Assembly: GCA_965261085.1 (NCBI GenBank)
Contig: OZ253442.1
Coordinates: forward strand, 832,001-896,000
Reading direction: 5' to 3'
Origin: a bacterium
GTDB taxonomy: Bacteria; UBA8248
Length of the DNA stretch: 64,000 nucleotides
Shown: in pieces, positions 9,527-47,098 of the stretch
How positions within the stretch are numbered: the first letter of the stretch is position 1
How the letters are laid out: each line of letters starts with the position of its first letter
The notes under the pieces: generated by a model
What the model saw: the letters and a program-made list of their open reading frames with translations, nothing else
Told to the model about the DNA's origin: nothing
Databases searched by the model: none
Translations under genes and position numbers: made by a program

Positions 9527-10069
9527 ATGAGTGACGTCATCACCGGCCAGGTGGTCTACGACCCTAGAGGGGTGGTCGAGGCCCAAGCGCAACCCACCGC
9601 AAAGCGTGTCCGGAATTTGAAGGGCTTAAAGCTCGGCGTCCTGGACAACACCAAGTGGAACGGGCGCAGGCTGCTCGAGAAGACCACGGCGCTGATGGAG
9701 GCGGAAGGTCCCTTTTCCGAGGTGCATTACTACAAGAAAGAGAGTTTTTCCAAGAACGCGGCGCCTGAGTTGATCGCCCAAATCGCAAAGGAGAACGACG
9801 TCGTCCTGACGGCGATTGGCGACTGAGGCTCCTGCACTTCGTGCTGTATGCACGATGCGATCTCCCTGGAAGAAAAAGGGGTGCCCACCGCCGTGGTGGT
9901 GACGGAGGTTTTCCTGCATGAGGCCCACGTGCAAAGGGCGGCCTTGGGCATGGACGGTCTCGACCCCGTGGTCATTCAACACCCCCTGAGCACGCTTTCG
10001 GATGAGGAAATCTCCGCGCGCGCGAGCGATGCTGCTCTCCAGGCGGTGAAGGTTCTCCTCGGCGGATAG
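9527..10069 (+). CDS. UGSC-family selenoprotein (Sec at codon 100, TGA 9824-9826)
   Basis: ORFs 9527-9826 and 9848-10069 are in one frame and read TAIGD-U-GSCTSCCMHDAISLEEKGVPT. RBS AGGAGG. A SECIS-like hairpin follows. Confidence 0.92.
9834..9858 (+). promoter_or_regulatory. Putative bacterial SECIS element
   Basis: gca-ct-TCGTGC-tgtat-GCACGA-tgc; the loop starts 18 nt after the UGA and has G at loop position 2. Confidence 0.65.
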
Positions 10070-10081
10070 TTTAATCTTTTC

Positions 10082-11314
10082 ATGACGAAACCACTGGAAG
10101 GCATCCGAGTCTTAGACTTGACGCAGTTTCTCTCAGGTCCCCAAGCCACGCTTTTCCTGGCGGGTCTGGGAGCCGAGGTCATCCGTATCGACAATCCGGC
10201 TACCGGCGATCCGGTGGCCTATTCCCCCCCCTATATCGGGGCAAAAGGCGTCTCCTATCATCCCCAGACGGATGAGGACATAGGGCTGGCCTATCTCAAG
10301 CGCACGCGCGCGAAAAAAGCGATTACCCTCAACATCAAGGACCCGCGTGGTCTCGAGATGCTCTATGGACTCGTCGATCGCTCCGACATCCTGGTGGAGA
10401 ATTTCTCCGTCGGCGTCACGAAGAGACTCAAAATCGACTACGAGACGCTCCAGGCGCGAAAACCCTCCCTGGTCTACTGCTCCATCACGGGCTACGGCCA
10501 GACGGGGCCGGATGCGGGGCTCAAGGGCTACGACGCCGTTTCCCAGGCCGCCTCTGGGCTCATGAACCTAACGGGGTTTCCCGACGGGCCGCCCACCAAG
10601 GCGGGTTCGGCTCTTGGCGACAGCATGGGCGGCACGTTCGCTTTCGGCGCCATCATGACGGCGCTCTTTCACCGCGAGCGCACGGGCAAGGGCCAGCACA
10701 TCGATATTTCGATGATCGATTGCATCTTCTCCCTCATCTTCGATGAGCCGATGGATTGCTACGAGCATCTGGGCCTGCCGCCCCGAATCGGGAACCGCAT
10801 CATGCGGCTCGCTCCCTTTAACGCCTATGAGACGAAAGACGGCTGGGTCATCATCGCTTCGGGAACCAACGCCCATTGGCGCAACATATTGCGCGGCATC
10901 GAGCGCGCCGACCTTATCAACGATGAACGATACGAGGACATGAGCCGGCGCGTAAGCAAATACGAAGAGGTCGACGCCATCATTACCGACTGGACGAAGC
11001 GGCGCGAGACGAAAGAGGCGGTCTCCTCCCTGCGCGTGCACGACGTCATCTGCGGGCCGGTGCACAATATCGACGACATCCTCGCCTGGCCCCACATGCG
11101 CGCGCGCGGGATGATAGTCGATATCGAACACCCCACGCTCGGGCCGCTCGACAGCGCAAAGGCCCCGGGCTTTCCTTTCAAGTTCAGTGAAATAAAAGGC
11201 GGTTACGCCACCCCCGCCCCGCTCGTGGGCCAGCACAACGGGGAAATCCTCGGTGGTCTGCTCGGCGTGTCGGATGCGGAATTGAAAGAGCTGGAAGATG
11301 AGGGCGTGGTCTAG
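10082..11314 (+). CDS. CaiB/BaiF family III CoA-transferase
   Basis: PLEGIRVLDLTQFLSGP, LVENF, ITGYGQTGP and the catalytic Asp in ALGDSMGG. Confidence 0.93.
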   Translation: MTKPLEGIRVLDLTQFLSGPQATLFLAGLGAEVIRIDNPATGDPVAYSPPYIGAKGVSYHPQTDEDIGLAYLKRTRAKKAITLNIKDPRGLEMLYGLVDRSDILVENFSVGVTKRLKIDYETLQARKPSLVYCSITGYGQTGPDAGLKGYDAVSQAASGLMNLTGFPDGPPTKAGSALGDSMGGTFAFGAIMTALFHRERTGKGQHIDISMIDCIFSLIFDEPMDCYEHLGLPPRIGNRIMRLAPFNAYETKDGWVIIASGTNAHWRNILRGIERADLINDERYEDMSRRVSKYEEVDAIITDWTKRRETKEAVSSLRVHDVICGPVHNIDDILAWPHMRARGMIVDIEHPTLGPLDSAKAPGFPFKFSEIKGGYATPAPLVGQHNGEILGGLLGVSDAELKELEDEGVV

Positions 11315-11319
11315 GGTTT

Positions 11320-12156
11320 ATGAGGAGCCGAGCCTACGATTTCTCAGCCATGCGGCATTTTGTCTTTATCCTGATGCTGGTTGGTTTTGTTCTTCCGGGC
11401 TGCGCCGGCGGAGTCGGCCCCGTCGGGGTCGATTCCGAAACGCTCGACTTGGCGGATGAGGCGAGGCGTACTTTCGATTCCGCCTATGTCATGATCCGGT
11501 TAAAAGATGAGTTCATCGAAGGCAGGATGAGCGACGAATTCGTTCAGAGGAAACTTGCGAGCTTCAAGAAAAAACGCCCCATCGTCATTTTTTCGCACGG
11601 CTGCGCGGGGCTTGGCCGGGGAAATTTACGCTATATGCGGCTGTTGGCGCGCGCGGGATACGCTGTGATCGCTCCCGACAGCTTCGCGCGTCACTACCGG
11701 CCAGAGACCTGTGATCCTTCCCAACATCGAGGCATAAAGGGAGCGCCTCACAGGCGGGTGAACCAGATGCGCCAGGAGGAGATTCACCACGCGGCCTATC
11801 GTGTTCGGCGCATCCCCTGGGTGGACCGGAGAAACCTGTTCCTGATGGGACATAGCCAGGGCGGCACCGCGGTAGCCGCCTACGAGGGGGATGGGTTCAA
11901 GGCCCATGTCATCAGTGGTTCCATATGCTGGCGCGGCGTTCGGTCGCCACGCGGGACACCCATCCTCGCACTGTACTCAGAGGACGACCCATGGCGGCGG
12001 GGCAGACCCGCAGATTCATGCCTGCGCAAGGCAAAGGCGCGAGGCGCGAACATGGAATTTCACCTCTTCGGGGGCCGGGCGCACAACCTCTCGCGCAACA
12101 AGAGAGCGCGGCGGCTGATTCTCGATTTTCTTGGCCGACACCGCAGGGCGGAATAA
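11320..12156 (+). CDS. Dienelactone-hydrolase-family protein, probable lipoprotein
   Basis: Lipobox-like VLPGC, HGCAG, GHSQGG, D-P-W and AHN. Confidence 0.78.
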   Translation: MRSRAYDFSAMRHFVFILMLVGFVLPGCAGGVGPVGVDSETLDLADEARRTFDSAYVMIRLKDEFIEGRMSDEFVQRKLASFKKKRPIVIFSHGCAGLGRGNLRYMRLLARAGYAVIAPDSFARHYRPETCDPSQHRGIKGAPHRRVNQMRQEEIHHAAYRVRRIPWVDRRNLFLMGHSQGGTAVAAYEGDGFKAHVISGSICWRGVRSPRGTPILALYSEDDPWRRGRPADSCLRKAKARGANMEFHLFGGRAHNLSRNKRARRLILDFLGRHRRAE

Positions 12157-12298
12157 GAGCGCTTGAAGCGCGCGTCTTGAAATTTCATGCTATTCGTTCT
12201 CCCGGCAAGCTCCGGCTTTCAGGAGCGATGCGGCATCGCCCGCCCCCCTGTGGTAGGATTTCCCTTGTCGCGGACTTGAAACCTGGAGGCTCATCCTC

Positions 12299-13285
12299 AT
12301 GCGAATCTGTACTTTCAGCCTTGGGGGCGAGGCGCGCATCGGCGTCTTGTTCGAGGATAAAATCGCCGATCTCAAGATGGCCTACGCCTTGTCGCTGGAC
12401 GAGCAATCGGCGGCGGAGGCCATGGATCGCGTCGAGGCCGAAATTCCCGATGATTGCGAGGAGTTCATCGAGGACCTGGAGATGAATCGTCCTCTCGCCG
12501 AGGAAGCTCTCGAAGCGCTCGAAGCGCATTCGAGCAAAAAAGACCCGATTCGCTTCGACGGAATGCAGGTTGTCTATGCGCCCGAAGAAGTCGAGATTCT
12601 TCCCCCCGTCGTACCCGACACGCTGTTTTGTATGGCGAGAAACTATGTGGCCCATGCCGCCGAGATGGCGCGCACCAAGGTGGATGATTTCAAGGAGGAA
12701 CTCCCGCTCTATTGCTTCTTGAAGCCCAGCACCTGCGTGAGTGGCCCGTATGAGGAAGTGCCCGTCTACCCCTCGATGGAAAAACTCGACTACGAACTCG
12801 AACTCGGCGTGCTCATCGGCCAGGGCGGCAAGAACATTCCCGTGGAGCGGGCGATGGATCACGTGGGCGGCTACACTCTGTTCAACGACATGAGCGATCG
12901 CACGAGCCTGAACATGGGCAAGTTCATCGACTGGTACGCCATGAAGGCGCCGGACGGCTTCGCCCCCATCGGCCCCTACATCCTGCTCCCAGAAGAAGGT
13001 CTCGACCCCCACGATTTGAGGCTCAAGCTGTGGGTGAACGGTGAACTGAGGCAAGACGCCACCACGGGCGACATGGTCTGGCGGGTCGCCGAGCAGATAT
13101 CGTATCTATCGGGCATCGCCACGCTGCGAACGGGCGACATCATCGGCACCGGCTCGCCTGCGGGCAACGCCGCCTCCTGGGGGAAATACCTGGAGCCGGG
13201 CGACCTGATTGAGGGCGAAATCGAGCATATCGGGCGGCAGGCGTTTCGAATCAGGAGCGAAAGCCCCGAGTATACGCCGGTCTAG
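12299..13285 (+). CDS. Fumarylacetoacetate hydrolase family protein
   Basis: RNYVAHAAE, LDYELEL, NDMSDR, KAPDGFAPIGP, GDIIGTGSP. Confidence 0.92.
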   Translation: MRICTFSLGGEARIGVLFEDKIADLKMAYALSLDEQSAAEAMDRVEAEIPDDCEEFIEDLEMNRPLAEEALEALEAHSSKKDPIRFDGMQVVYAPEEVEILPPVVPDTLFCMARNYVAHAAEMARTKVDDFKEELPLYCFLKPSTCVSGPYEEVPVYPSMEKLDYELELGVLIGQGGKNIPVERAMDHVGGYTLFNDMSDRTSLNMGKFIDWYAMKAPDGFAPIGPYILLPEEGLDPHDLRLKLWVNGELRQDATTGDMVWRVAEQISYLSGIATLRTGDIIGTGSPAGNAASWGKYLEPGDLIEGEIEHIGRQAFRIRSESPEYTPV

Positions 13286-13379
13286 TTCTCCCGGCGGTTG
13301 ATTCGCACCCGTTTGCGCATTAAGATTTTCGCATCGATAGATAGAATACCGAACCGTTGAAACCCGAGAGGGGACCCCC

Positions 13380-14747
13380 ATGAACCCAGCCATAGCCGAA
13401 GCCGAATCCCTGCGGACGATGGACAAGGAGCACGTCTGGCATCCGCTCATGAACCATTCCGGGATCGAGAAAAATCCCCTCGACGTCGTGGTCAAGGCCA
13501 AAGGCTCGACCATCCAGGACGCCTCCGGTAAGGAATACATCGACGCCATGGCGGGGCTTTGGTGCGTGAACATCGGCTACGGGCGCGACGAGGTCGCCCG
13601 GGCGGCGTACGAGCAGATGCTCGAGTTGGCCTATTATCCGCTGACCCAGGTGAACCCCCCCGCGGCCAGGCTCGCCGAGCGTCTCGCTTCCCTGCTGCCC
13701 GAGGGGGTCGAGCGCATCTGGTTCGTGAACTCGGGATCAGAAGCCGTGGACACCGCCATCAAGATAGCCCGCGTCTACGGACGCCTGAAAGGCGGGAGGC
13801 GATATAAAATCATCGCCCGCCACCAGGGCTATCACGGGGCGACCATCGGCGGCGCGAGCTTGACCGGCCAGACACTCAGGCGCGCGATGTTCGAGCCGCT
13901 CCTGCCGGGGGTGATTCACGTGAGCGCCCCCTATTTCTACCGCAGCAACGCAGATTCCGAGGCAGAACTCGCCCGGCGGTGCGCGGATGAACTCGACGAG
14001 GTCATTCGCTACGAAGACCCCGAGACCGTGGCGGCGTTCATCGCGGAGCCCATCATCGGCGGCGGCGGGGTGATTCCCCCGCCCGCGGATTACTTAAAGC
14101 GCATGCGCGAGGTGTGCCGGAACCACGGGGTGTTGTTCATCGCCGATGAGGTCATCACCGGTTTCGGGCGCACGGGGGAGCTATTCGCTTCGGATCTGTA
14201 CGAGGTCGAGCCGGACATCATGACGATGGCCAAGGGGCTGAGCAGCGCCTATCTGCCCATCGGGGCGACGGCGACCACGAACGAGATATTCGAGGCCTTA
14301 AACGTGGAGGGCGATTCAGGGTTCCTGCAGATAAACACCTATGGCGGACACCCCGTCGCCTGCGCGGCGTCGCTCAAGAATCTCGAGATCATGATGGATG
14401 AGGAGTTGCCCGCGCGCGCCAAGAAGGTGGGCGCCTACCTGGGCGGGCTTCTGGGGAAACTCGCCGACATCCCCTGCGTGGGAGATATTAGAGGCGTGGG
14501 CCTCATCTGGGGTGTTGAACTGATAGAAGAAAGCGGCGCGCCGCTCTCCACGGCGGCCACGTCGAAGGTGCTTGCCTACGCCAAGGAGGCGGGCGTAATT
14601 TTCGGCAAGAACGCCGGCATCGCCGCCGGCCCGTCGAATACCGTCACCATCAGTCCGCCGCTGGTGCTGACCGAGGAAGAAGCCGAGCGCGCCGCGTCTG
14701 TTCTCGACGGCGCCTTGCGCCGCGTTCAGGCGGAGAGCGGGGCATGA
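13380..14747 (+). CDS. Class III (omega-amino acid) PLP aminotransferase
   Basis: SGSEAVD, GYHG, FIADEVITGFGRTG, MAKGLSS, TYGGHP. Confidence 0.93.
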   Translation: MNPAIAEAESLRTMDKEHVWHPLMNHSGIEKNPLDVVVKAKGSTIQDASGKEYIDAMAGLWCVNIGYGRDEVARAAYEQMLELAYYPLTQVNPPAARLAERLASLLPEGVERIWFVNSGSEAVDTAIKIARVYGRLKGGRRYKIIARHQGYHGATIGGASLTGQTLRRAMFEPLLPGVIHVSAPYFYRSNADSEAELARRCADELDEVIRYEDPETVAAFIAEPIIGGGGVIPPPADYLKRMREVCRNHGVLFIADEVITGFGRTGELFASDLYEVEPDIMTMAKGLSSAYLPIGATATTNEIFEALNVEGDSGFLQINTYGGHPVACAASLKNLEIMMDEELPARAKKVGAYLGGLLGKLADIPCVGDIRGVGLIWGVELIEESGAPLSTAATSKVLAYAKEAGVIFGKNAGIAAGPSNTVTISPPLVLTEEEAERAASVLDGALRRVQAESGA

Positions 14748-14798
14748 GGCGCTAAACGAAAAATTTATCTCGCACATCATTTTCTGGGAGATTGAAAG

Positions 14799-15461
14799 AT
14801 GTCCAACATCACCATGCTCGATATCGAGGATTTGAAGAAGACGAAGCTGGCTCCTTTCCTCAACAAGGCGCTCAAGCACCGCGCGCCCGACCCCGCCTTT
14901 CACGCCATGCAGGGCCACAACGAGGAATTGGCGAAATCGATGTATCTCGCCTGGGGCACGGTGTTCAACACCGGCGTCATCGACCACAAGCTCAAGGAGA
15001 TCATCCGCGTTCAACTCTCGCGCCGCGCTTTTTGCAATTACTGAGGGAACGTGCGTTCTGCTTCGGCGAAGCAGGCAGGCCTGACCGAGGAGTTGATAGA
15101 CGAGGGCATCGACAACTGGCGCGACAGCGAGAATTTCACCGAAGCCGAAAAACTCGCTCTCGAATACAGCGAACTTATGGATTCAGAGCCTGAGAAGATC
15201 GACGAGGCCTTCTACGCGAGGCTCAGGGAGCACTACTCGGATGAGGAAATCGTGGAGTTGGGTTCTTTCATCGGCTTCAACGTGGGCTACCACACTTTTT
15301 TCAGAACGCTCGATTTCTACCCCATGTTCTCCCCCGACGGCCGGCTGGTGAGCCAGGAGGAATCGCGCCGCATCTACGGCGATTGTCCCGTCTCGCACAT
15401 GAGCGGCCCGCTTGAGCGTGCTCTCGAAGAGGGCGAAGCGCAGCAAGCCAACGGAAGCTAG
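14799..15461 (+). CDS. AhpD/carboxymuconolactone-decarboxylase-like selenoprotein with CxxU motif (Sec at codon 82, TGA 15042-15044)
   Basis: ORFs 14799-15044 and 15051-15461 are in frame: IDHKLKEIIRVQLSRRAFCNY-U-GNVRS...FTEAEKLAL...LREHYSDEEIVEL. A SECIS-like hairpin follows. Confidence 0.9.
15052..15077 (+). promoter_or_regulatory. Putative bacterial SECIS element
   Basis: tgc-gtt-CTGCTTC-ggc-GAAGCAG-gca; the G-initiated loop is 20 nt after the UGA. Confidence 0.7.
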
Positions 15462-15470
15462 GAGGAAGAC

Positions 15471-16076
15471 ATGCCGATAATCGAGCCGCTTGACCCCGAA
15501 GCGATTGAGGAGAAGGACTGGAAGCGCGTCATGGAGCGCACCGCCGAGACCCAGGCGCCGGATGCGTTGTTCTCGCGCATCATGGCCCATGCGCCCGGCT
15601 ACGCCGCCGCCATGCACGACGCCATGCACCGCTCCCACGCCATGGGCGGGGTGGACCACAAGCTCAAGGAGATGGTCCGCATCCAGCTCGCCAGAACCGC
15701 GCAGGACACCTACTTCGCGAACTTACGCTCCGAGCAGGCGAAAAAAGAGGGTCTGACGGAGGAGCGCATCGAGGCCGCCTGCGGGGATTTCGAGAACGAC
15801 CCGCAGTTCACCGACGCCGAGAAGTGGGCGCTTCGCTATTCCTACTGGATGTACCGCGACGCCGCGAAGCTGGACAAGGATTTCTACGATGAGGGCAAAA
15901 AGCATTTTTCCGAAGCCCAGATTATGGAGCTCGGCGCAATGGTGGCGCTTCACTACGGTCTGCAGGTCTTCATGCGCACGCTCAAGGCCTACCCACTGCA
16001 CGATCCGGAAGGAAACGTCGTGACGCAGGCGCAGTCCGAGAAGATTTACGGAAAAGACGTGCCCCTGCCCGCCTGA
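15471..16076 (+). CDS. AhpD/CMD-like paralogue lacking the redox CxxC/CxxU motif
   Basis: VDHKLKEMVRIQLARTAQDTYFANLRS aligns with the upstream gene, but CNYU is replaced by DTYF. Confidence 0.85.
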   Translation: MPIIEPLDPEAIEEKDWKRVMERTAETQAPDALFSRIMAHAPGYAAAMHDAMHRSHAMGGVDHKLKEMVRIQLARTAQDTYFANLRSEQAKKEGLTEERIEAACGDFENDPQFTDAEKWALRYSYWMYRDAAKLDKDFYDEGKKHFSEAQIMELGAMVALHYGLQVFMRTLKAYPLHDPEGNVVTQAQSEKIYGKDVPLPA

Positions 16077-16093
16077 AGCTCGCCACTAAGGTG

Positions 16094-16123
16094 AAACGCT
16101 CGCTATCCGGCGGGCGTTTTTTA
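16094..16123 (+). terminator. Rho-independent terminator
   Basis: AAACGCTCGC...GCGGGCGTTT stem followed by a T-run. Confidence 0.75.
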
Positions 16124-16296
16124 TGGGCCTGAGAGCTTGAAAAATAGCGCGCCGCGGATTTTCTCCGCCATAGGCGTCAGTTTTTTGAGTCGTATTATTA
16201 TGCTGATAGCGGTGAAAGAAATTTCTTGAGTCACGGCCCCCGCCATGCTTTAATGCCTCATCTGTACGATAGCGACGGTCTCACCCGGAGGTGCGT

Positions 16297-16448
16297 ATGG
16301 CGACCCACGTTCCGCCTCGACCCAGTAACGATCTAGCGCATCATGTCTTGCCCGGCTATTTTGCGGCCGCTCCACCTCGCCACCTTACAGAATCTTTTCG
16401 AGAACGAAGCGAATTTCAACCGGATTTCACCAGAATGGGAGTGAACTC

Positions 16449-16452
<4 letters not shown>
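16297..16452 (+). CDS. Putative 51-aa upstream ORF coupled to amtB
   Basis: RBS GGAGGTG, ATG 16297, and a stop TGA overlapping the amtB ATG (ATGA). Confidence 0.4.
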
Positions 16453-17855
<1,403 letters not shown>

Positions 17856-18568: not shown

Positions 18569-18572
18569 AAAT

Positions 18573-20046: not shown

Positions 20047-20050
20047 GGTT

Positions 20051-35087: not shown

Positions 35088-36080
35088 TTACAATGAGTTC
35101 ACAGGATACCTGGGCTTCTTTCCGCTCAAGACGCGGGCGATGTCCGCCCCCGCCCATGTGGCGATGGCTTCGAGGCACTCGTGCGTGGAGCCCGCCATGT
35201 GCGGCGTGAGAATGAGGTTGGGCGCACCGAAGATGGCGCTTTCTGGGTCGGGCGGTTCGCCTTCGAGCACGTCGAGGGCCGCCCCGCCGATTCGTCCACT
35301 CTTGAGCGCGCGCGCAAGCGCCGCTTCGTCCACCAGCGGGCCTCTCGCGGCGTTCACGAGAAACGCGCCTTTTTTCATTTTCGAGATCGCTTGCCTGTCG
35401 ATCAGGTGATGGGTTTTCGGCGTGAGCGGCGCGTGAAGTGTGATGAAATCGGCCCGGCCCAGGAGGGTGTCGTATCGCGTGGGCCTCGCACCGCGCGCCT
35501 TGATCTCCTCGCTCTTGAGGCCCGGGTCGTGGGCGAGGACCTTCATGCCCATCGCGAGCGCCATTTTCGTGAGCCGGCTCCCCACCTGCCCGATGCCGAT
35601 TAAGCCCAGCGTTTTCCCTTTGAGTTCCACTCCCGTGTGGCGCGCCTCGCCCCATACCCGTTCCGCGCCCACGCGGGAGGCCGCCTGGGGGATGCGTCTG
35701 GCTAAGGAGAGAATCAAGCCGAGAGTCAGTTCGGCCACGGCGTTCGCGTTCGCACCCGGCGTGTTGGTGACGAGTACGCCGCGTTGCGTGCAGGCCGCCA
35801 CGTCGACCTGATCCACGCCCGCGCCGTGTACGGCAACGACGCGCAGGTCCGGCAGCAGGTCGAGCAAAGAGGCGGCTATGTAGCCCGGACGCAGTAGAAT
35901 CCCTTCCGCGCCATTTAGTTTCTCGGCGAAGAGGACCTCTTCTTCTTCGGTCAGGGGTCTAAAGGGCAGCGCTACGGCGCGAACCGGCGCGACGCCGGCC
36001 AACGCCCTTTTCACGGGCTCCATGGCGACTGGAAAATCGGATGTGGAGGTGACGGCGGCCCACCGTTTTCTGAAAGGCAT
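35088..36080 (-). CDS. D-isomer-specific 2-hydroxyacid dehydrogenase (SerA-like, no ACT domain)
   Basis: GAGVDQVD, NANAVAE, GIGQVG, NAARG, ALDV..EP, TPHMAG. Confidence 0.9.
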   Translation of the reverse strand: MPFRKRWAAVTSTSDFPVAMEPVKRALAGVAPVRAVALPFRPLTEEEEVLFAEKLNGAEGILLRPGYIAASLLDLLPDLRVVAVHGAGVDQVDVAACTQRGVLVTNTPGANANAVAELTLGLILSLARRIPQAASRVGAERVWGEARHTGVELKGKTLGLIGIGQVGSRLTKMALAMGMKVLAHDPGLKSEEIKARGARPTRYDTLLGRADFITLHAPLTPKTHHLIDRQAISKMKKGAFLVNAARGPLVDEAALARALKSGRIGGAALDVLEGEPPDPESAIFGAPNLILTPHMAGSTHECLEAIATWAGADIARVLSGKKPRYPVNSL

Positions 36081-36088
36081 CAGGCGAG

Positions 36089-37750
36089 CTACATGTCGAC
36101 GACGGAGAATTCGCCATCATAGTTGTATTCGGCTCTGGCCTTTTGAACGGAAAGCAGTCCCTCTTGCAAGTCGTGTTCGATGGAGTAGAAGGAGCGGTCC
36201 TTCGGATCGCCGTAACCCCCCCCGCTCGGCACTTCGAGCACGAGCCTGTCGCTTTGGTTCATCACCCATTGACGCTTGGGGTTGATGGGGCGTCCGTTCA
36301 GGGTCACCTTGCCGACGCGCCCGTTTTTCCCGCCGAACAACCCATAGGCGGGGTGCCGGGTTCGCTCGCTCATGAACGTGAGGAGGATAGGTCCGTCGGA
36401 CAGCGATTTCACGATGACCTGCTGGCCGTTTCCACCGGCGTATTTGCCCGCGCCGCCGCTGTCTCTGATGGACGCTTTTCTCTCCACCAGCAAGGGTACA
36501 AGATGCTCGAGGATTTCGATGGGTGTATTCGACGTGTTCGAAGGGAAATCGAGACATACGCGCCCATCGTGCCTGTCCGTCGCGCCTTGTCCTCCGTGCA
36601 GGAAGAAGTTGCCGGCGAAGTGCCTGTTTTCCTTTGTGATGCCTGCCGCGTTGATGGCCCACGTGGGGCTGCCGCTGGCCGCCTGCACGAGGTTGGGAAC
36701 CGCTTTGCACAGCGCGCCGAAAATGGCCGAGGGAATGAAGTGTCCCACCATGGAGCGGCCGTTCACGGGGGCCGGATAACGGGGATTCAGTATGCTGCCC
36801 TCGGGGGCCGATACCGTCACGGGCCGGAAGTTGCCCTCGTTGTTGGGAATCTGCGGACAGAACAGGCATTTGAGCGAATAGGCGGAATAGGAATAGACAT
36901 AGTTCAGAACGGCGTTCAGGCCGCGGTCGACCTGTGGGGATGAGCCCGTGTAATCCACCAGAATGCTGCTGCCGCGTACCTTGACCTCCACGCGGATGAC
37001 GAGCGGCTCATCGTACCCGTCGGTGGATACCTGAAAGCGGTATTCCCCGTCTTCCACTTTCTTGATGGCCTCGCGCATCGCGTTTTCAGAACGCTGGAAG
37101 ATTGTGGTGGCCGGTGCCTCGATGTCGGCGAGTTTGTACTCTTCGAGCATCTCGCCGATGCGCTGGGCGGCGAGTCTTCCGGCGGACATATGGGAGATCA
37201 TGTCTCCCTCCACCTGGTTCGGCACGCGCACGTTTTTTCTGATAATGCGCAGAATATCCTCGTTGATCTGGCCCGCCGACATGTACTTGCAGGGCGGGAG
37301 CTGGAGGCCTTCTTCGTAAATCTCGCGCACCTCGGGGGATCGCAGTTTTCCCCCCATGTCCGTTACCTGGGTGGTGATGCCGATGATGGCGACCAGCTTC
37401 GATTTGTAGAACACCGGTGTGAGAGAAGTGAGGTCTTGAAGATGACCGGTTCCCATCCACGGGTCGTTCGTGAGGATGAGGTCATCCGGCTTGAGGGTTT
37501 CCTGCGGGAATATCTGCAGAAGTTTTTTGGCTGTAATCGGCAATGCGCCCACGAAGCTGGGCATGGTGGACCTGGCCTGGGCGATGGACTGTCCGTTGGG
37601 ATTCAGTATGATGACGGCGAAATTTCTCGATTCGCGTATGGTCGTGGAAAAAGCGGTGCGGACAATCTCGGTGGCCGCTTCCTCGGCGATGGCGATGAAG
37701 CGGTTCCAGAGGACTTCCAAGGTAATTGAATCGATACCCTTGCGGGCCAT
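36089..37750 (-). CDS. Hydantoinase B/oxoprolinase family protein
   Basis: RTAFSTTIRE, NDPWMGTGHLQD, EIYEEGL, NTPIEILE, DSGGAG, SGGGYGDP. Confidence 0.93.
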   Translation of the reverse strand: MARKGIDSITLEVLWNRFIAIAEEAATEIVRTAFSTTIRESRNFAVIILNPNGQSIAQARSTMPSFVGALPITAKKLLQIFPQETLKPDDLILTNDPWMGTGHLQDLTSLTPVFYKSKLVAIIGITTQVTDMGGKLRSPEVREIYEEGLQLPPCKYMSAGQINEDILRIIRKNVRVPNQVEGDMISHMSAGRLAAQRIGEMLEEYKLADIEAPATTIFQRSENAMREAIKKVEDGEYRFQVSTDGYDEPLVIRVEVKVRGSSILVDYTGSSPQVDRGLNAVLNYVYSYSAYSLKCLFCPQIPNNEGNFRPVTVSAPEGSILNPRYPAPVNGRSMVGHFIPSAIFGALCKAVPNLVQAASGSPTWAINAAGITKENRHFAGNFFLHGGQGATDRHDGRVCLDFPSNTSNTPIEILEHLVPLLVERKASIRDSGGAGKYAGGNGQQVIVKSLSDGPILLTFMSERTRHPAYGLFGGKNGRVGKVTLNGRPINPKRQWVMNQSDRLVLEVPSGGGYGDPKDRSFYSIEHDLQEGLLSVQKARAEYNYDGEFSVVDM

Positions 37751-37763
37751 ATTTGAATCTCTC

Positions 37764-42357: not shown

Positions 42358-43398
42358 ATGCCGATGGATTGGGATGAGTTCAAATCGAGAAGACAAGGTG
42401 GAGGAGGTGGCGGTGGAGGCGGCGGCATGCCGCAGTTCAAGCTGCCGCAGTTTCGTTTGCCGAATTTCAAGCTCCCGTCCGTGGCCATATTCGTGGTGGT
42501 GGTTCTGATTTGGCTGGCTTCGGGTATTTTCAGCGTGGGGCCGGACGAGCAGGGAATCGTTCTTCGGTTCGGCCGCATCGACCGGGTGGTGTCCTCGGGC
42601 TTGAACTATCATATGCCCTTCCCGATGGAGACCGCCTACACGCCGAAGGTAACGGAAGTGAAGCGCGTGGAAATCGGCTTCCGCACGATCGACCCTGGGC
42701 CCCCCGCCAGATATACGGACAAGCCCCACGAGTCGAGGATGTTGACCGGGGATGAGAACATGGTCGACGTCGACATGATCGTGCAGTACCGCATCGTGGA
42801 GGCGGACAAGTACCTCTTCAAGGTTCGCAATCCTAGGGAGACGGTGGTGCACGCCGCCGAAGCCGCCATCCGGCAAGTCGTGGGCAGCAAGCCCATCGAT
42901 GAGGCGCTTACCACCGGAAAGGGTGCGATTCAGCAAGAGACGATGGTGGAGATGCAAAAGATATTGGATCTGTACGAAACCGGTTTGCGCGTGGCGGCGG
43001 TGCAGCTTCAGGACGTGACGCCGCCCAAGGATGTCATTCACGCCTTCAAGGACGTGGCCAGCGCCCGTGAGGACAGAAACCGCCTCGTGAATGAGGCGCA
43101 AGGCTATCAAAACCAGGTGATACCGGAGACGCGCGGCAAGGTGGCCGCCGTTCTCAGACAAGCGGAAGCCTACCGCGAGACCAAGATTCGCCATGCGCGC
43201 GGAGATGCGAACCGCTTCCTCGCCACGCTCAAGGAATACAAAAAAGCGCCGGCCATTACGCGCGAGCGCCTGTATCTCGAAATGATGCAGGAGGTGATGC
43301 CGACGGTGGACAAAATAATTCTGGATCAGGGTAAATCCGGCGTGTTGCCGATACTCCCGCTGCGGGGAGGTGGAATAGAAGGGATAACGAAACGATGA
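42358..43398 (+). CDS. hflK: FtsH protease modulator HflK
   Basis: Gly-rich N-terminus, TM helix, SPFH domain MLTGDENMV, RERLYLE. Confidence 0.95.
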   Translation: MPMDWDEFKSRRQGGGGGGGGGGMPQFKLPQFRLPNFKLPSVAIFVVVVLIWLASGIFSVGPDEQGIVLRFGRIDRVVSSGLNYHMPFPMETAYTPKVTEVKRVEIGFRTIDPGPPARYTDKPHESRMLTGDENMVDVDMIVQYRIVEADKYLFKVRNPRETVVHAAEAAIRQVVGSKPIDEALTTGKGAIQQETMVEMQKILDLYETGLRVAAVQLQDVTPPKDVIHAFKDVASAREDRNRLVNEAQGYQNQVIPETRGKVAAVLRQAEAYRETKIRHARGDANRFLATLKEYKKAPAITRERLYLEMMQEVMPTVDKIILDQGKSGVLPILPLRGGGIEGITKR

Positions 43399-44300
43399 GC
43401 GCCGAGGGAGCCATAAAATTGCCCAAAAAGACAATCGCGTTGTTGGTTTTGGTCCTGATTCTCATCTTCGCGCTCAATTCGTTTTTCTTTAAGGTTCGTG
43501 AAGACAGGCAAGTGGTCGTCACCCGGTTCGGCAAGCCAGTCCGCGTTTTGCGTGACGCGGGGCTTAACTACCGGATTCCATTCGTGGAGCAGCTCACGTA
43601 TTTCGACCGCCGCCTGCTGGAGTATGACTCCAACCCCACGGAGATCATCACCCAAGACAAGAAATCCCTCGTGGTGGATAACTTCTCGCGCTGGCGCATC
43701 ATCGACCCGCTGCAATTTCTGCGCACCGTCCGCAACGAACCCGGGGCGCAAGCGCGGCTCGACGACATTATCTACAGTGAATTGCGCCAAGAGCTTGGCC
43801 GCAAGGACTTGAGTGATATCGTGTCGAAAGACCGCGCGCAATTGATGGCCAAGGTCACCAAGGCGAGCGACAAGAAAGCGCGCGAATACGGCATCGAGAT
43901 AGTGGACGTTCGCTTGAAGCGAGCAGACTTGCCCACGGAGAACTTAAAGGCCATTTACGGGCGCATGCAGGCCGAGCGGCAAAGAATCGCCCGCCAGTAC
44001 CGCTCGGAAGGAAAAGAGCAGGCCCAGAAGATACGGGCGGAAACCAATCGTGAGCGTGACGTGCTCCTGGCGGTGGCTTATGAGAAAGAGCAAACCACCA
44101 AGGGCGAGGGCGACGCCAAGAGCATCGACATCAACGCCCAGGCGTTCGGGCAGGATCAGGAATTTTATGCGTTCCTGAAGAGCCTGGAGGTGTACCGGAG
44201 TTCTTTGAAAGAGAAGACGACGCTCCTGCTGCCCGCGGGCAGCGATTTCCTCAGATTCCTGCAAGGATCGAGGAACAGAAACCTGAAAAAATCCGAATAA
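43395..44300 (+). CDS. hflC: FtsH protease modulator HflC
   Basis: TQDKKSLVVDN, DVRLKRADLP, RMQAERQRIA, GEGDA, FYAFLKSLEVY. Confidence 0.95.
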   Translation: MSAEGAIKLPKKTIALLVLVLILIFALNSFFFKVREDRQVVVTRFGKPVRVLRDAGLNYRIPFVEQLTYFDRRLLEYDSNPTEIITQDKKSLVVDNFSRWRIIDPLQFLRTVRNEPGAQARLDDIIYSELRQELGRKDLSDIVSKDRAQLMAKVTKASDKKAREYGIEIVDVRLKRADLPTENLKAIYGRMQAERQRIARQYRSEGKEQAQKIRAETNRERDVLLAVAYEKEQTTKGEGDAKSIDINAQAFGQDQEFYAFLKSLEVYRSSLKEKTTLLLPAGSDFLRFLQGSRNRNLKKSE

Positions 44301-44318
44301 ATCCGGTTCCGGAAAAGG

Positions 44319-44352
44319 AAAGCCCCCTCTCTCTTGGAGAGGGGGCTTTTTT
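44319..44352 (+). terminator. Rho-independent terminator (possibly bidirectional)
   Basis: AAAGCCCCCTCTC...GAGAGGGGGCTTTTTT. Confidence 0.85.
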
Positions 44353-44439
44353 CGTGGTGCGTGGTTTCTGAAAAGCGCCTGATGCGAATTTTCCGGGCTT
44401 TTCAGAATTTTGGAGCCCCGTGGGGCCCCCTTGGTGGGA

Positions 44440-44612
44440 TAGGGGCATCCTCTGGAGGGAAAGGGCAGGCGATGCCCGGAAGGATGATTCTGCCGCCCGT
44501 CATCATGAACAACGTCAACGACTTGCCTATGAAAATTGCTTTTCCAGCGGAGATGAAGGGCGGATGCGCCTACCTGAACTGATGGTGATATGAATGTTTG
44601 ATGCTACCCTTA
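44440..44612 (-). ncRNA. Candidate structured ncRNA (about 170 nt, unidentified)
   Basis: Starts just after a TTGACA/TACATT promoter; three nested stems can be drawn; no convincing ORF or RBS. Confidence 0.35.
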
Positions 44613-44618
44613 CTCTTC

Positions 44619-44647
44619 AATGTAGGTCGGATTTTTCCTTATGTCAA
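44619..44647 (-). promoter_or_regulatory. Sigma70-type promoter
   Basis: Minus strand TTGACA-17 nt-TACATT. Confidence 0.6.
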
Positions 44648-44655
44648 GAAATTTC

Positions 44656-44825
44656 ACACAAAATGTAGTGTATTATTTTCTAGTTACACAATATATTGGG
44701 TTTGAAAGATGATCTTACCCACAGGTTATCCAGATGGGGAAAACCGAATTACTACATAAAAAGCAATCAGTTACGGGGATTCTATATATAGTGTGGCGAT
44801 GAGTTGTGGATACAATATCTTGGGA
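44656..44825. promoter_or_regulatory. Four NrdR-box-like sites (44656, 44686, 44779, 44810) with DnaA-box-like and IHF-like sites
   Basis: ACACAAAATGTAGTGT, ACACAATATATTGGGT, ATTCTATATATAGTGT and ATACAATATCTTGGGA versus consensus acaCwAtATaTwGtg; the pairs are 30 and 31 bp apart. Confidence 0.65.
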
Positions 44826-44976
44826 TAAGAAGAAATATTCTTTGCGGGCTTTCCCTGGATTCGTTTTCGGTCGATGAAGTCATTGAATCGGCTGCCGGAC
44901 GCATCCGAAGGCGCGCAAAACGAGCCGCCCTCCGGATGTTTTTACCGCACCACCGATCCAGGTGAGGAATCCCCCG

Positions 44977-45339
44977 TTATTCGTCTCTCAGGTAATTATC
45001 GCTCCCGTCGAGCCAGTCTTCACGGATGGGGCTGAAGATGTCGTAGTCTATCGCCGTTTCATCGCCCACGACTTCCACGGAGTGGGGGACGTGCGGTGGG
45101 ATGAGGAGCGTCTCTCCAGGCCCGATTTCCACGGATTCATCGTCGATGAAGAACCGGAGCCTTCCCTTGATGACGTGGGATATCTGCTCGTGCTCGTGGC
45201 TGTGCAGGGGCACCACGCAGCCGGGTTTGAGTTTGAGCCGGCAAAGCATCTCTTTTTCGCCCACCACCATCTTTCTCGATAAAGTGTCTGTCACGGTCTC
45301 CTCGGGCATCTCATCCCAACTGTATTTTTGGGCGCGCAT
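44977..45339 (-). CDS. Cupin domain protein
   Basis: PLHSHEHEQ...IPPHVPHS. Confidence 0.9.
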   Translation of the reverse strand: MRAQKYSWDEMPEETVTDTLSRKMVVGEKEMLCRLKLKPGCVVPLHSHEHEQISHVIKGRLRFFIDDESVEIGPGETLLIPPHVPHSVEVVGDETAIDYDIFSPIREDWLDGSDNYLRDE

Positions 45340-45403
45340 GGTTCATCTCCTTGGGGTCGAGTGTTGGTTCGCTTTCGGAAGGCGGCGAAACCCGCCTGGG
45401 GAT

Positions 45404-45682
45404 TTACTGCTTGTACTCGGGAAGCGTCCTGCTGAAGCCCTCCCGCATGACCCGGCCTTTTTTGAGAACGTAATAACCCTCACCATACCGGATGACGCTG
45501 GTGAGAGGGGGAATCTGGCATTCTTTCGAGATGATCAGGTTTTCCTGGGATTCATCGCGTGGGAGATAGCGCTCCGCATCCCCTTCGGATAGATGAATCT
45601 CGCGGTTACAGGCGCTGGACGCCTTTTCGTATTCGCCTTGCAGCTTTATGGTCTTGCATTCACAAACAATCGCGTTGCTCAT
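45404..45682 (-). CDS. Small hypothetical protein (92 aa)
   Basis: RBS AGGAG before ATG 45682; MSNAIVCECKT...; four Cys residues. Confidence 0.6.
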   Translation of the reverse strand: MSNAIVCECKTIKLQGEYEKASSACNREIHLSEGDAERYLPRDESQENLIISKECQIPPLTSVIRYGEGYYVLKKGRVMREGFSRTLPEYKQ

Positions 45683-45912
45683 CAAGGGTCTCCTGTGCTC
45701 ATTGAGAGCCTTCAGAAAAAGTAGGCCTATGCTAGAAACCAAGCCTCTCGGTGTCAAGACCGTGCGAGACGAAAACGCAGGAATCATCGGCGCGATGGTT
45801 CGGGAGAGGCCCGGTTCGGTTTGAAATGTCCCCATCGCACGAGTATAAGTAATCGCGTTCGGGCCTTATTATTTCAGGCTTGTTTTCGCTTCATCTATTT
45901 CAGGAGGGCGTA

Positions 45913-46416
45913 TTGATTCCACGTATGACGGACAAGATGATCGACTCGGGCGATCCCTTCCCGAGCCTCGAGGTGGACCAGGTGGGAGGCGGCAAAATCT
46001 CCCTACCCGGCGATCTCGCGGACGATTGGGGAGTGGTTCTGTTCTACCGCGGACACTGGTGACCTTATTGCAAGCAGCAACTGACGGCTTTCGACAGGGC
46101 GGCGAAGCTCAAGGAAGAAGGCGTCAAGGTTGTTGCAGCCTCCGTGGACACGGAGGAGAACGCCAAGGGAACGATTGAGGAATGCGGAATCAACTTCCCT
46201 GTGGGCTATGGCTTGGACAACAAGCAGATTTCTGAACTCACCGGTTGTTTCTATGAAGAAAAACGCCAGATCATTCACAGCACGGGCTATGTCTTAAAGC
46301 CCGATGGAACGGTCGCCGTGGCCGTCTACAGCAGCGGGCCCATCGGCCGGCTCGTGTGGCAGGACGTATTGGGCTTGGTCCAGTTCCAAAAGAAGATGAT
46401 GGCGGCCCAAAGCTAG
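45913..46416 (+). CDS. Peroxiredoxin-like (AhpC/TSA) selenoprotein with UxxC motif (TGA 46060-46062)
   Basis: ORFs 45880-46062 and 46144-46416 are in frame: VVLFYRGHW-U-PYCKQQL. RBS AGGAGG before TTG 45913 (alternative start ATG 45925). Confidence 0.92.
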
Positions 46417-46432
46417 CGCGCATCTTTTTGAG

Positions 46433-46470
46433 CACCCCCTCGGGTTTTGACTTCGAGGGGGTGTTTTTTT
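46433..46470 (+). terminator. Rho-independent terminator between the two Prx-like genes
   Basis: CACCCCCTCG...CGAGGGGGTG followed by T7. Confidence 0.8.
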
Positions 46471-46573
46471 GCGCGAAATCCGGGGGGCCGGTTTTCATCG
46501 TTACGCCGGAGCGATAACATCCCGAGTACATGAAACGGACTCGATTATTTCTTGAACAAGAGTGGAGCGTATC

Positions 46574-47098
46574 ATGCCGAAAGCGAACCGGTTCTTCCTG
46601 GACACCGGGGATGATTTCCCGAGCCTCGAGATCGCCAAAGTGGGAGGCGGAAAAATCAGCTTGCCCGATGACTTGCGGGGCTCGTGGGGCGTCGTCCTGT
46701 TCTACCGCAGCCATTGGTGACCCTACTGACTCGCCCAGATGGCGGGATTCTCCCGGGCGGGAGAAAGACTGGAAGCAGAGGGCATCAAGGTCGTGGCGGC
46801 GTCCACCGACCCGGAAGATGAGGCGGTGCAGTCCAACGAGGCGAGCAAGGTGAATTTTCCGGTGGGCCACAGCGTGGACCCCGCCTATATATCCGAGATG
46901 ACGGGCGCTTTCTACGCCCCTGAAGCGGGCGAGAAGCCGAGGCCGTTTCTTCACGCCACCAACTTTCTGCTCTCACCCGACGGCAAGGTGAACATCTCGC
47001 TTTATAGTTCGGGTCCTCTGGGTCGTCTCGTCTGGCAGGACGTCATCCAGGCCGTGCAGTTCAGGAAAAAGCGCATGGCGGCCCAGGCGCAGCAGTAG
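46574..47098 (+). CDS. Peroxiredoxin-like selenoprotein with UxxU motif (TGA 46718-46720 and 46727-46729)
   Basis: ATG 46574 reads MPKANRFFLDTGDDFPSLEIAKVGGGKISLPDDLRGSWGVVLFYRSHW-U-PY-U-LAQMAGF..., in frame with ORF 46739-47098 and collinear with the upstream paralogue. Confidence 0.9.
46730..46765 (+). promoter_or_regulatory. Two tandem SECIS-like hairpins
   Basis: CTCGCC-cagat-GGCGGG (46730-46746) and TTCTCCC-gggc-GGGAGAA (46748-46765). Confidence 0.6.

What the first reader, a model, noticed from the sequence alone, without database searches (positions are those of the whole stretch)
9527..47098. Hidden selenoproteome: four Sec genes from three families (five UGA codons) in one 64-kb window
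Seen: in-frame TGA at 9824, 15042, 46060, 46718 and 46727, each at a catalytic Cys-equivalent position with coding sequence continuing in frame. Each gene has a downstream hairpin with G in the first two loop positions, 18-34 nt after the UGA (the 46081-46097 hairpin is the weakest). Known: this matches the general bacterial SECIS model. Inference: the organism may be unusually selenoprotein-rich, and standard gene callers fragment these genes. The Sec machinery itself is not in this window.
Basis: partly seen in the sequence, partly recalled or inferred. Interest (0 to 1): 0.8.

Follow-up and report, generated by a model that had tools for sequence, protein, structure and literature searches.

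The report
Four real selenoprotein genes, known families
The five in-frame TGA codons are genuine selenocysteine codons in four small redox-protein genes of a bacterium that carries about fifty such genes, but the protein families and the lineage's selenium richness are already in the literature.

Summary
All five in-frame TGAs lie exactly where stated.

**The four genes**
- a UGSC-family protein
- an AhpD/CMD-like CxxU protein
- a tandem pair of Prx-like thiol:disulfide oxidoreductases, one UxxC and one UxxU

**Sec machinery.** The 4.27-Mb one-contig genome holds tRNA-Sec, selA, selB and a Sec-containing selD.

**Conservation.** The TGAs are kept in orthologues: UGSC 80 of 80, AhpD-like 32 of 32, first Prx-like position 32 of 32.

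**SECIS hairpins.** The fourth (46081-46097) is not conserved. A longer hairpin, 46074-46136, is.

**Genome-wide count.** My screen found at least 45 Sec genes, probably 49-52. This window is the densest in the genome. SECIS-like hairpins are strongly enriched after these UGAs (p = 2e-14).

**Novelty.** All three families, the UxxU form included, are in a 2026 review table. 'Nitrospinota' MAGs of GTDB phylum UBA8248 are published among the ten most selenoprotein-rich bacteria. Two earlier notes of this scan on the same genome reached the same view. The verdict is real but ordinary.

**Small new points**
- The second Sec of UxxU has switched with Cys at least 4 to 8 times among relatives.
- A PF04273-type Sec protein elsewhere in the genome was not found in the catalogues I could search.

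The parts
9527..10069 (+). UGSC-family selenoprotein gene (180 aa, motif G-D-U-G-S-C, U100)
   Evidence: One search gives the translation. Pfam PF24696 scores 4.3e-58. NCBIfam NF041046 scores 158.7 bits against a cut-off of 125. 80 of 80 homologous loci carry TGA at this position.
9824..9826 (+). UGA read as Sec (UGSC gene)
9839..9855 (+). SECIS-like hairpin: 6-bp stem UCGUGC/GCACGA, loop UGUAU, starting 18 nt after the UGA
   Evidence: Searches give dG -8.4. In 80 loci from several phyla the Ser-Cys-Cys codons TCG-TGC-TGT are almost fixed at synonymous sites. The G-C pair changes to G-U (CAT) or A-U (TCA with CAT, in L071 and L111).
14799..15461 (+). AhpD/CMD-like selenoprotein gene (220 aa, motif C-N-Y-U-G, U82)
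   Evidence: One search gives the translation. PF02627 scores 28.1 bits against a cut-off of 23. 32 of 32 orthologous places carry one TGA. The U aligns with the second Cys of CxxC in solved CMD proteins.
15042..15044 (+). UGA read as Sec (AhpD-like gene)
15057..15075 (+). SECIS-like hairpin: 8-bp stem, loop GGC, 20 nt after the UGA
   Evidence: One search gives dG -8.6. The sequence is identical in 23 of 25 loci. The other two (L288, L289) carry a compensatory U-A to C-G change.
15471..16076 (+). Adjacent AhpD-like paralogue without the redox motif (D..F in place of C..U)
   Evidence: 37% identity to the Sec gene. It lies next to the orthologue in the relatives.
45880..46416 (+). Prx-like thiol:disulfide oxidoreductase selenoprotein gene, motif W-U-P-Y-C (U61 counted from TTG 45880; the ATG at 45925 may be the true start)
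   Evidence: One search gives the translation. PF00578 scores 3.1e-20. 20 of 20 loci from the same genus read UPYC.
46060..46062 (+). UGA read as Sec (UxxC gene)
46074..46136 (+). Conserved long hairpin and likely SECIS: outer stem 46074-46082 with 46128-46136, inner stem 46087-46092 with 46117-46122, variable apex. In this genome the apical loop GGCGAA lies 38 nt after the UGA.
Evidence: 14 pairs are kept in 99.0% of 392 cells over 28 distinct sequences, against 31.6-68.4% when the partners are slid.
46562..47098 (+). Prx-like thiol:disulfide oxidoreductase selenoprotein gene with two Sec, motif W-U-P-Y-U (U53 and U56 counted from GTG 46562; the ATG at 46574 is a possible start). It is 55% identical to its upstream neighbour.
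   Evidence: PF00578 scores 3.1e-18. Orthologues carry 1 or 2 TGAs.
46718..46720 (+). First UGA read as Sec; U in 32 of 32 orthologues
46727..46729 (+). Second UGA read as Sec; U in 15 and Cys in 17 of 32 orthologues
   Evidence: It aligns with the peroxidatic Cys of solved peroxiredoxins.
46748..46765 (+). SECIS-like hairpin UUCUCCC-GGGC-GGGAGAA, 34 nt after the first UGA and 25 nt after the second; probably serves both
   Evidence: One search gives dG -9.8. Each of its 7 pairs is unchanged in 24 to 26 of 26 distinct orthologue sequences, synonymous sites included, and the hairpin is the same in UxxC and UxxU forms.

Best explanation
The window holds four genuine selenoprotein genes.

**Decoding (inferred mechanism).** SelB carrying Sec-tRNA(Sec) binds a hairpin in the coding sequence just downstream of each UGA. 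Selenocysteine is then inserted instead of translation stopping.

**Where the Sec sits.** In each protein it occupies the redox-active position:
- U-G-S-C at a strand-to-helix turn of the UGSC protein;
- the second position of the CxxC-type motif of an AhpD-like protein;
- the first position (gene 3), or both positions (gene 4), of the CxxC-type motif of two tandem thioredoxin-fold, Prx-like oxidoreductases.

**The double-Sec gene.** One hairpin lies within working distance of both UGAs, which are 9 nt apart. A single TGC/TGA change therefore switches the second position between Cys and Sec, and this has happened repeatedly among relatives.

**Genome context.** The host is a Nitrospinota-labelled bacterium with a complete Sec system and roughly fifty selenoprotein genes, mostly small thiol-type redox proteins.

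**Shown here:** the codons, their conservation, the machinery, the hairpin enrichment and conservation, and family membership.

**Inferred:** actual Sec insertion, SelB binding, and the redox roles.
For: **Reading frames and families.**

**Sec machinery.**
- tRNA-Sec found by ARAGORN and by Rfam RF01852 (75.9 bits against a threshold of 47) at C1:110882-110974.
- selB 384 bits, selA 579 bits, selD 336 bits with one in-frame TGA, all over their cut-offs.

**TGA is still the commonest stop.** Among ORFs of at least 400 codons, TGA ends 729, TAG 438 and TAA 353.

**TGA conserved in orthologues.**
- UGSC: 80 of 80 loci, from MAGs labelled as several phyla.
- AhpD-like: 32 of 32 places down to 48% identity.
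- Prx-like pair: present in 22 of 22 genomes of the genus and 36 of 36 of the family. The first position is U in 32 of 32.

**Sec/Cys exchange.** The second position of gene 4 is U in 15 rows and C in 17.

**Hairpins.**
- Genome-wide enrichment.
- Invariance or compensatory changes at genes 1, 2 and 4.
- A long hairpin conserved at gene 3.

**Genome-wide screen.** 43 of 319 candidate junction peptides have a Pfam domain spanning the TGA, always at a redox-type motif.
Against: - No direct evidence of selenium in any of these proteins.
- Single-sequence folding energies of the four downstream regions do not differ from shuffles.
- Gene 3 has no strong canonical hairpin. The best perfect-stem candidate is only -3.9 kcal/mol, with its loop 38 nt from the UGA. 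That lies just beyond the 16-37 nt range I recall for the bacterial SECIS model.
- Covariation in the gene-3 long hairpin is thin: 1 pair has a change on both sides, in 2 sequences. The structure was also derived from the same alignment on which it was counted.
- Most compared sequences are close kin, so invariance partly reflects shared descent.
Confidence: 0.93

Rival explanations
1. Some of the UGAs are read through by something other than Sec, such as Cys-tRNA or near-cognate suppression, or they mostly terminate. The likeliest cases are the second UGA of the UxxU gene and the UGA of gene 3 with its atypical hairpin.
For: Gene 3 lacks a strong canonical hairpin. The second position of gene 4 accepts Cys freely in relatives. 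No tool here measures what is inserted.
Against: The gene-3 TGA is kept in all 29 gene-3-type sequences found, together with a conserved long hairpin. The gene-4 hairpin lies 25 nt from the second UGA, inside the range seen at the other Sec sites of this genome (14-38 nt). The UxxU form persists in 15 of 32 orthologues across several genera.
Confidence: 0.05
2. The organism reads TGA as an ordinary sense codon under an altered genetic code, so these are not selenoproteins.
For: Frames stay open through the TGA.
Against: TGA is the commonest stop of long ORFs: 729 of 1520. In-frame TGAs with a domain spanning them sit only at Cys-type redox motifs. A full Sec machinery is present.
Confidence: 0.01
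3. The TGAs are sequencing errors or inactivating mutations, and the genes are pseudogenes.
For: Gene callers would split each gene.
Against: The same TGA appears in 80 of 80, 32 of 32 and 32 of 32 independent assemblies. Coding potential is high on both sides. No other stops or frameshifts were seen, and the apparent break in G008 is one intact frame.
Confidence: 0.01

Closest known systems
UGSC-containing selenoprotein family (Pfam PF24696, NCBIfam NF041046). Described from ocean metagenomes: PMC2398784 and the PMC13188914 table, passages read.
   Same: The U-G-S-C motif. The gene passes both family models, NF041046 over its curated cut-off. Sec forms predominate: 80 of 80 here, and 255 Sec against 21 Cys in the GOS table.
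   Different: Nothing material. Function is unknown in the literature. My model (pLDDT 88) is a five-strand alpha/beta sandwich with U100 at the start of a helix. It matches only generic flavodoxin-like folds at TM about 0.4-0.5.
AhpD-like / carboxymuconolactone decarboxylase-like CxxU selenoproteins (PF02627, TIGR01926; PMC2398784 Table 2 and the PMC13188914 table)
   Same: The CMD domain. The CxxU motif aligns with CxxC of solved CMD-family proteins such as 7xw1 and 2ijc.
   Different: It is below the cut-off of every specific NCBIfam selenoprotein model. The best is NF053654, at 68.7 bits against 310. It has a conserved redox-dead paralogue next door.
Prx-like thiol:disulfide oxidoreductase selenoproteins (PF00578, motifs UxxC and UxxU, 1-2 Sec; PMC13188914 table, passage read)
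   Same: The AhpC/TSA domain and both motif forms.
   Different: Here the two forms sit in tandem. The second Sec toggles with Cys among close species. I did not see either point in the passages I read.
SelL, the UxxU diselenide Prx-like protein of aquatic animals and marine bacteria (recalled from the 2007 PNAS paper, not read here; named in a PMC2398784 passage). NCBIfam NF040769 is the SelL-related model.
   Same: A UxxU motif in a thioredoxin-fold, Prx-like protein.
   Different: It is not a member: NF040769 scores 26.9 and 18.6 bits against a cut-off of 120. It matches PF00578 well, whereas the GOS 'Prx-like 2' UxxU group is described as only weakly like pfam04592.
Selenoprotein-rich bacteria: Olavius Delta 1 symbiont (63 genes) and UBA8248 'Nitrospinota' MAGs (54, 50, 48), from BSepDB Table 2, PMC13326102 (passage read)
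   Same: About 45-52 Sec genes in a genome whose nearest named relatives are MAGs labelled Nitrospinota or Nitrospinaceae. The family mix is dominated by small redox proteins.
   Different: I could not confirm that this genome belongs to GTDB phylum UBA8248, nor whether it is in BSepDB.

Membership tests
Bacterial selenoprotein gene (SelB/SECIS-dependent UGA recoding) | In-frame UGA conserved in orthologues, with coding continuing | tested here: met
   80 of 80; 32 of 32; 20 of 20 and 32 of 32
Bacterial selenoprotein gene (SelB/SECIS-dependent UGA recoding) | selA, selB, selC (tRNA-Sec) and selD in the genome | tested here: met
   all are over their curated cut-offs
Bacterial selenoprotein gene (SelB/SECIS-dependent UGA recoding) | Stem-loop with G in the first two apical-loop positions about 16-37 nt after the UGA (range recalled, not read here) | tested here: met
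   Genes 1, 2 and 4 have loops at 18, 20 and 34/25 nt, conserved. Gene 3 is borderline, at 38 nt on a conserved long hairpin.
Bacterial selenoprotein gene (SelB/SECIS-dependent UGA recoding) | Homologues with Cys at the Sec position | tested here: met
   Gene 4, second position: C in 17 of 32. AhpD-like and Prx-like U align with Cys in solved homologues. Not shown here for UGSC.
Bacterial selenoprotein gene (SelB/SECIS-dependent UGA recoding) | Selenium actually present in the protein | not testable with these tools
   Needs 75Se labelling or mass spectrometry
UGSC family (PF24696 / NF041046) | Score over the curated cut-off, and the UGSC motif | tested here: met
   196.7 bits against 25; 158.7 bits against 125; motif GDUGSC
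AhpD/CMD family (PF02627) | Score over the gathering cut-off, and a CxxC-type motif | tested here: met
   28.1 bits against 23. C-N-Y-U aligns with C-A-Y-C of 7xw1 and 2ijc.
YciW-related (seleno)protein NF053654 | Score over the curated cut-off | tested here: not met
   68.7 bits against 310
Prx-like thiol:disulfide oxidoreductase selenoprotein (PF00578, UxxC/UxxU) | AhpC/TSA domain over the cut-off, with a UxxC or UxxU motif | tested here: met
   72.8 and 66.3 bits against 26; motifs WUPYC and WUPYU
Typical peroxiredoxin (AhpC, PrxU, PrxQ models) | Score over the equivalog cut-offs, and a Thr three residues before the peroxidatic Cys | tested here: not met
   All NCBIfam peroxiredoxin models are far below their cut-offs. 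U occupies the Thr position in the alignment to 7kuu and 6q5v.
SelL / SelL-related redox protein (NF040769) | Score over the curated cut-off | tested here: not met
   26.9 and 18.6 bits against 120

The most novel reading that the evidence does not exclude
This lineage may still hold selenoprotein biology that is not in the catalogues.

**(a) A natural Cys/Sec switch.** The tandem Prx-like pair has one invariant hairpin that decodes either one or two UGAs 9 nt apart. The second position flipped between Sec and Cys at least 4 to 8 times within one bacterial family. That offers matched natural selenylsulfide and diselenide variants of the same enzyme.

**(b) A possibly undescribed family.** A PF04273/TIGR01244-type sulfur-transferase-like protein (PTP-like fold) has Sec in an H-U-x5-R motif. 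It occurs in two paralogues per genome, and 53 of 54 matched places carry a TGA. It may be a selenoprotein family not yet described.
Probability: 0.35. Interest if true: 0.5.

Novelty: new member of a known kind. Interest (0 to 1): 0.3.

Why it matters
**For annotation.** About fifty genes in this genome are split or truncated by any caller that treats TGA only as stop. That distorts the redox and stress-defence inventory of a group known only from metagenome assemblies.

**For biology.** It adds one more complete genome to the short list of bacteria with about 50 selenoproteins. It also offers two testable side results:
- a repeatedly toggling UxxU/UxxC motif served by one hairpin;
- a possibly uncatalogued Sec form of a sulfur-transferase-like family.

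None of this changes what is known about how Sec is decoded.

Tried and rejected
- **Single-sequence folding** of the four regions downstream of the UGAs was not significant. I replaced it with a genome-wide comparison and with alignments.
- **A mini-hairpin 5 nt after the gene-3 UGA** (CUGC-AAGCA-GCAG) was seen. I did not adopt it. It lies too close to the UGA, and conserved Cys and Gln codons could explain it.
- **UGSC as a remote relative of the selenoprotein B (GrdB/PrdB) Sec region.** There are hints only: a PrdB model at E = 0.0059, and hhalign aligning U with U at E = 0.044, probability 1.2%. The PrdB-like comparison gave nothing. Not claimed.
- **Fold search of the UGSC model** gave only generic flavodoxin-like and TIR-like sandwiches, TM 0.35-0.53. 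The sequence search of solved structures found nothing below E = 0.8.
- **New families among leftover candidates.** The 268 candidate TGA junctions without a spanning domain were ranked by hairpin energy. The top ones look like ordinary gene ends followed by a new start. None was pursued.
- **More Sec genes in the window.** The other junctions that reached the Pfam scan (5281+, 14745+, 47979- and 36041-36352) have no domain across the TGA.
- **The apparent break of the gene-4 orthologue in G008** is one intact frame with a divergent middle.
- **A G000 coordinate reference** was not accepted by translate. I used fetched loci instead.

**Limits of the screen.** It needs 20 open codons with coding signal on both sides, or a redox-type motif for N-terminal sites. 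It missed selD, so the count is a lower bound.

Full report
**1. Observation**

Reading TGA as U gives four uninterrupted frames:

| Frame | Length | Motif | Sec position(s) |
|---|---|---|---|
| 9527-10069 | 180 aa | ...AIGDUGSCTSCC... | U100 = 9824 |
| 14799-15461 | 220 aa | ...RAFCNYUGNVR... | U82 = 15042 |
| 45880-46416 | - | ...YRGHWUPYCKQQ... | U61 = 46060 |
| 46562-47098 | - | ...YRSHWUPYULAQ... | U53 = 46718, U56 = 46727 |

Under table 11 each gene falls into two ORFs, so an ordinary caller would fragment them. The window's other RNA genes are one rRNA operon and three tRNAs. None is tRNA-Sec.

**2. Families**

- Gene 1 matches Pfam UGSC (4.3e-58). It also matches NCBIfam NF041046, 'UGSC family (seleno)protein', at 158.7 bits against a cut-off of 125.
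- Gene 2 matches the CMD/AhpD family (28.1 bits against 23). It reaches no specific NCBIfam selenoprotein model.
- Genes 3 and 4 match AhpC/TSA (72.8 and 66.3 bits against 26). They are far below every peroxiredoxin equivalog and below the SelL-related model, at 18.6 and 26.9 bits against 120.
- Genes 3 and 4 are 55% identical tandem paralogues.
- Against solved structures, the AhpD-like C-N-Y-U aligns with C-A-Y-C of CMD-family proteins.
- In gene 4 the first U aligns with the Thr of the peroxiredoxin TxxC motif. The second U aligns with the peroxidatic Cys. ResA-type CxxC oxidoreductases also match.

**3. Machinery and genetic code**

The window lies at 832001-896000 of a single 4,267,820-bp contig. 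Estimated completeness is 96%.

| Component | Place (C1) | Score |
|---|---|---|
| tRNA-Sec, anticodon TCA | 110882-110978 | Rfam RF01852, 75.9 bits against 47 |
| selB | 1297998-1299884 (-) | 384 bits |
| selA | 1300825-1302210 (-) | 579 bits |
| selD | 3459-4421 (-) | 336 bits, with its own in-frame TGA |

TGA ends 729 of the 1520 ORFs of at least 400 codons. There is therefore no general reassignment of TGA.

**4. Conservation**

- **UGSC.** 80 of the 80 best loci kept from the genome collection carry TGA in G-D-U-G-S-C. They come from MAGs labelled Nitrospinota, Alphaproteobacteria, Burkholderiales, Chloroflexota, Dormiibacterota, Vicinamibacterales, Methylomirabilales and others.
- **AhpD-like gene.** All 32 orthologous places, from 100% down to 48% identity, have exactly one TGA. 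25 of 25 fetched loci read C-N-Y-U-G.
- **Prx-like pair.** P0004 finds a match in 51 of 61 genomes searched. That covers 22 of 22 genomes of the genus and 36 of 36 of the family.
- In 20 loci from the genus, gene 3 is always UPYC. Gene 4 always has U first, then U in 8 and C in 12.
- Adding 12 more distant gene-4 sequences gives U first in 32 of 32, then U in 15 and C in 17.
- On a quick maximum-likelihood tree of these 32 rows, with the motif codons masked, the U/C state needs 8 changes. Well-supported branches force at least 4. As few changes arose in 21 and 31 of 500 label shuffles.
- This is a gene tree of kin built with a short search, so the number is indicative only.
- A seeming break of the G008 orthologue is one intact frame.

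**5. Hairpins**

Alone, the four downstream regions fold no better than shuffles. I therefore compared all Sec sites found in the genome with controls.

The measure was the best perfect-stem hairpin with G in loop position 1 or 2 and the loop 14-40 nt after the codon. At 44 Sec sites its median dG is -8.1 kcal/mol. At 1500 in-frame Cys codons it is -2.5 (p = 2e-14). A value of -6 or lower is reached at 75% of Sec sites against 17.6% of controls.

- **Gene 1** (9839-9855, loop UGUAU). The codons forming the stem are almost fixed at synonymous sites across 80 loci. The one variable pair runs G-C, G-U, A-U.
- **Gene 2** (15057-15075, loop GGC). Identical in 23 loci, with a U-A to C-G double change in the two from other genera.
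- **Gene 4** (46748-46765, loop GGGC). Each of its 7 pairs is unchanged in 24 to 26 of 26 distinct sequences, and the hairpin is the same in UxxC and UxxU forms. Its loop is 34 and 25 nt from the two UGAs, so one element plausibly serves both.
- **Gene 3.** A long hairpin 46074-46136 is kept in 99.0% of 392 cells, against 31.6-68.4% for slid partners. It has a variable apex, and in this genome the apical loop is 38 nt from the UGA. Covariation there is thin, and the structure came from the same alignment. This is the least certain element.

**6. Is the organism unusually rich?**

I scored every in-frame TGA for coding signal on both sides. I then cut 319 junction peptides and scanned them against Pfam.

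43 have a domain spanning the TGA:

| Family | Count |
|---|---|
| CMD | 10 |
| UGSC | 6 |
| OsmC | 5 |
| AhpC/TSA | 4 |
| deiodinase-like | 3 |
| DSBA | 3 |
| GRDA | 2 |
| glutaredoxin | 2 |
| rhodanese | 2 |
| PF04273 | 2 |
| DsrE, thioredoxin, DUF3179, DAO | 1 each |

- The U always sits in a redox-type motif.
- Adding a SelW-like CxxU protein and selD gives 45.
- Four more have an NCBIfam model across the TGA: PrdB-like, GrdB-type, ArsC-family (seleno)protein and peroxidase-related AhpD-like. The GrdB-type and ArsC-family hits exceed their cut-offs.
- Three more are weaker.
- The mean is 0.67 Sec genes per 64 kb. No 64-kb stretch holds more than 4, and only 0.6% of sliding windows reach 4.

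**7. What is known**

All papers below were read as passages found by term search, not in full.

- The GOS paper lists the UGSC-containing, AhpD-like and Prx-like families. It notes UxxU forms and neighbouring selenoprotein genes (PMC2398784).
- A 2026 review table lists 'Prx-like thiol:disulfide oxidoreductase, PF00578, UxxC, UxxU, 1~2'. It also lists UGSC, CMD-like, OsmC-like, DUF3179, deiodinase-like, DsbA-like, DsrE-like and rhodanese-like families (PMC13188914).
- BSepDB's Table 2 places three 'Nitrospinota/Nitrospinaceae/Nitrospinae' MAGs of GTDB phylum UBA8248, with 54, 50 and 48 genes, among the ten richest bacteria (PMC13326102).
- The nearest named relatives of this genome are MAGs with those NCBI labels. 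That it belongs to the same phylum is my inference.
- Two earlier notes of this scan on the same genome, a Sec rhodanese and a Sec DsbA-like protein, reached the same view. My screen recovered both sites.

**8. UGSC fold**

An AlphaFold model built from 31 sequences has mean pLDDT 88.1 and pTM 0.83. It is a five-strand alpha/beta sandwich, with U100 between strand 92-98 and helix 101-116. It resembles only generic flavodoxin-like folds. A link to the Sec region of selenoprotein B stays below significance.

**9. Verdict**

The finding is a new member of known kinds in a lineage already reported as selenoprotein-rich.

Worth keeping are:
- the corrected gene-3 structure;
- the repeated Sec/Cys toggling at the second position of the UxxU motif with an unchanged hairpin;
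- the PF04273-type Sec protein noted below.

Noticed in passing
G000:C1:1090623-1091072 (+) and 1938859-1939299 (+); L150:5747-6199 and L175:9601-9987: A 150-aa PF04273 / TIGR01244-type protein (sulfur-transferase-like, PTP-like) with Sec in F-V-H-U-K-x-x-G-R-A. It has two paralogues per genome. 53 of 54 matched places in 31 of 61 genomes carry a TGA, and the exception is a contig-end fragment. It was found only in the window's own family f1 (30 of 36 genomes). Term searches of the 2026 review and the BSepDB paper for PF04273, TIGR01244, 'phosphatase' and 'sulfur transferase' found nothing, and no paper in the library pairs these names with 'selenoprotein'. It may be an uncatalogued selenoprotein family; the supplements were not read.
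   Followed up: partly
G000:C1:1090037-1090597 (+), L150:5161-5721: An OsmC-like Sec gene (G-F-U-L-L-T) lies immediately upstream of the PF04273-type Sec gene, forming a two-selenoprotein operon. Eight pairs of Sec genes in the genome lie within 15 kb of each other.
   Followed up: no
G000:C1 near 3309999 (+), L220:704-1033: An N-methyltryptophan/sarcosine-oxidase-like (DAO) frame with an in-frame TGA in H-A-E-U-C-V-A. Pfam and NCBIfam domains span it, and a hairpin (dG -7.9) lies 35 nt downstream. It is either a Sec flavoprotein oxidase or a pseudogene. Conservation was not checked.
   Followed up: no
window 15471-16076 (+): The AhpD-like Sec gene has a 37%-identical neighbour that lacks both redox residues (D and F in place of C and U). 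This neighbour lies next to the orthologue throughout the genus.
   Followed up: partly
window 8404-17855 (+): The UGSC and AhpD-like genes sit on one strand among a family III CoA-transferase, a dienelactone hydrolase, a fumarylacetoacetate-hydrolase-family protein, a class III aminotransferase and an ammonium transporter. This may be one catabolic gene cluster. The ORFs 8404-9498 and 15471-16076 have no Pfam hit at 1e-5.
   Followed up: no
G000:C1:1195483-1204800 and 2149652-2153037: Two loci carry glycine-reductase-type selenoproteins: GrdA twice, a GrdB-type protein and a component-B subunit. A separate PrdB-like U-G-L-C protein lies near 505254. This is unexpected company for a Nitrospinota-labelled genome.
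   Followed up: no
window 46730-46745: A second hairpin (CUCGCC-CAGAU-GGCGGG) starts right after the second UGA of gene 4. It shows both-side changes at two pairs but is broken in several sequences. Its role is unclear.
   Followed up: no
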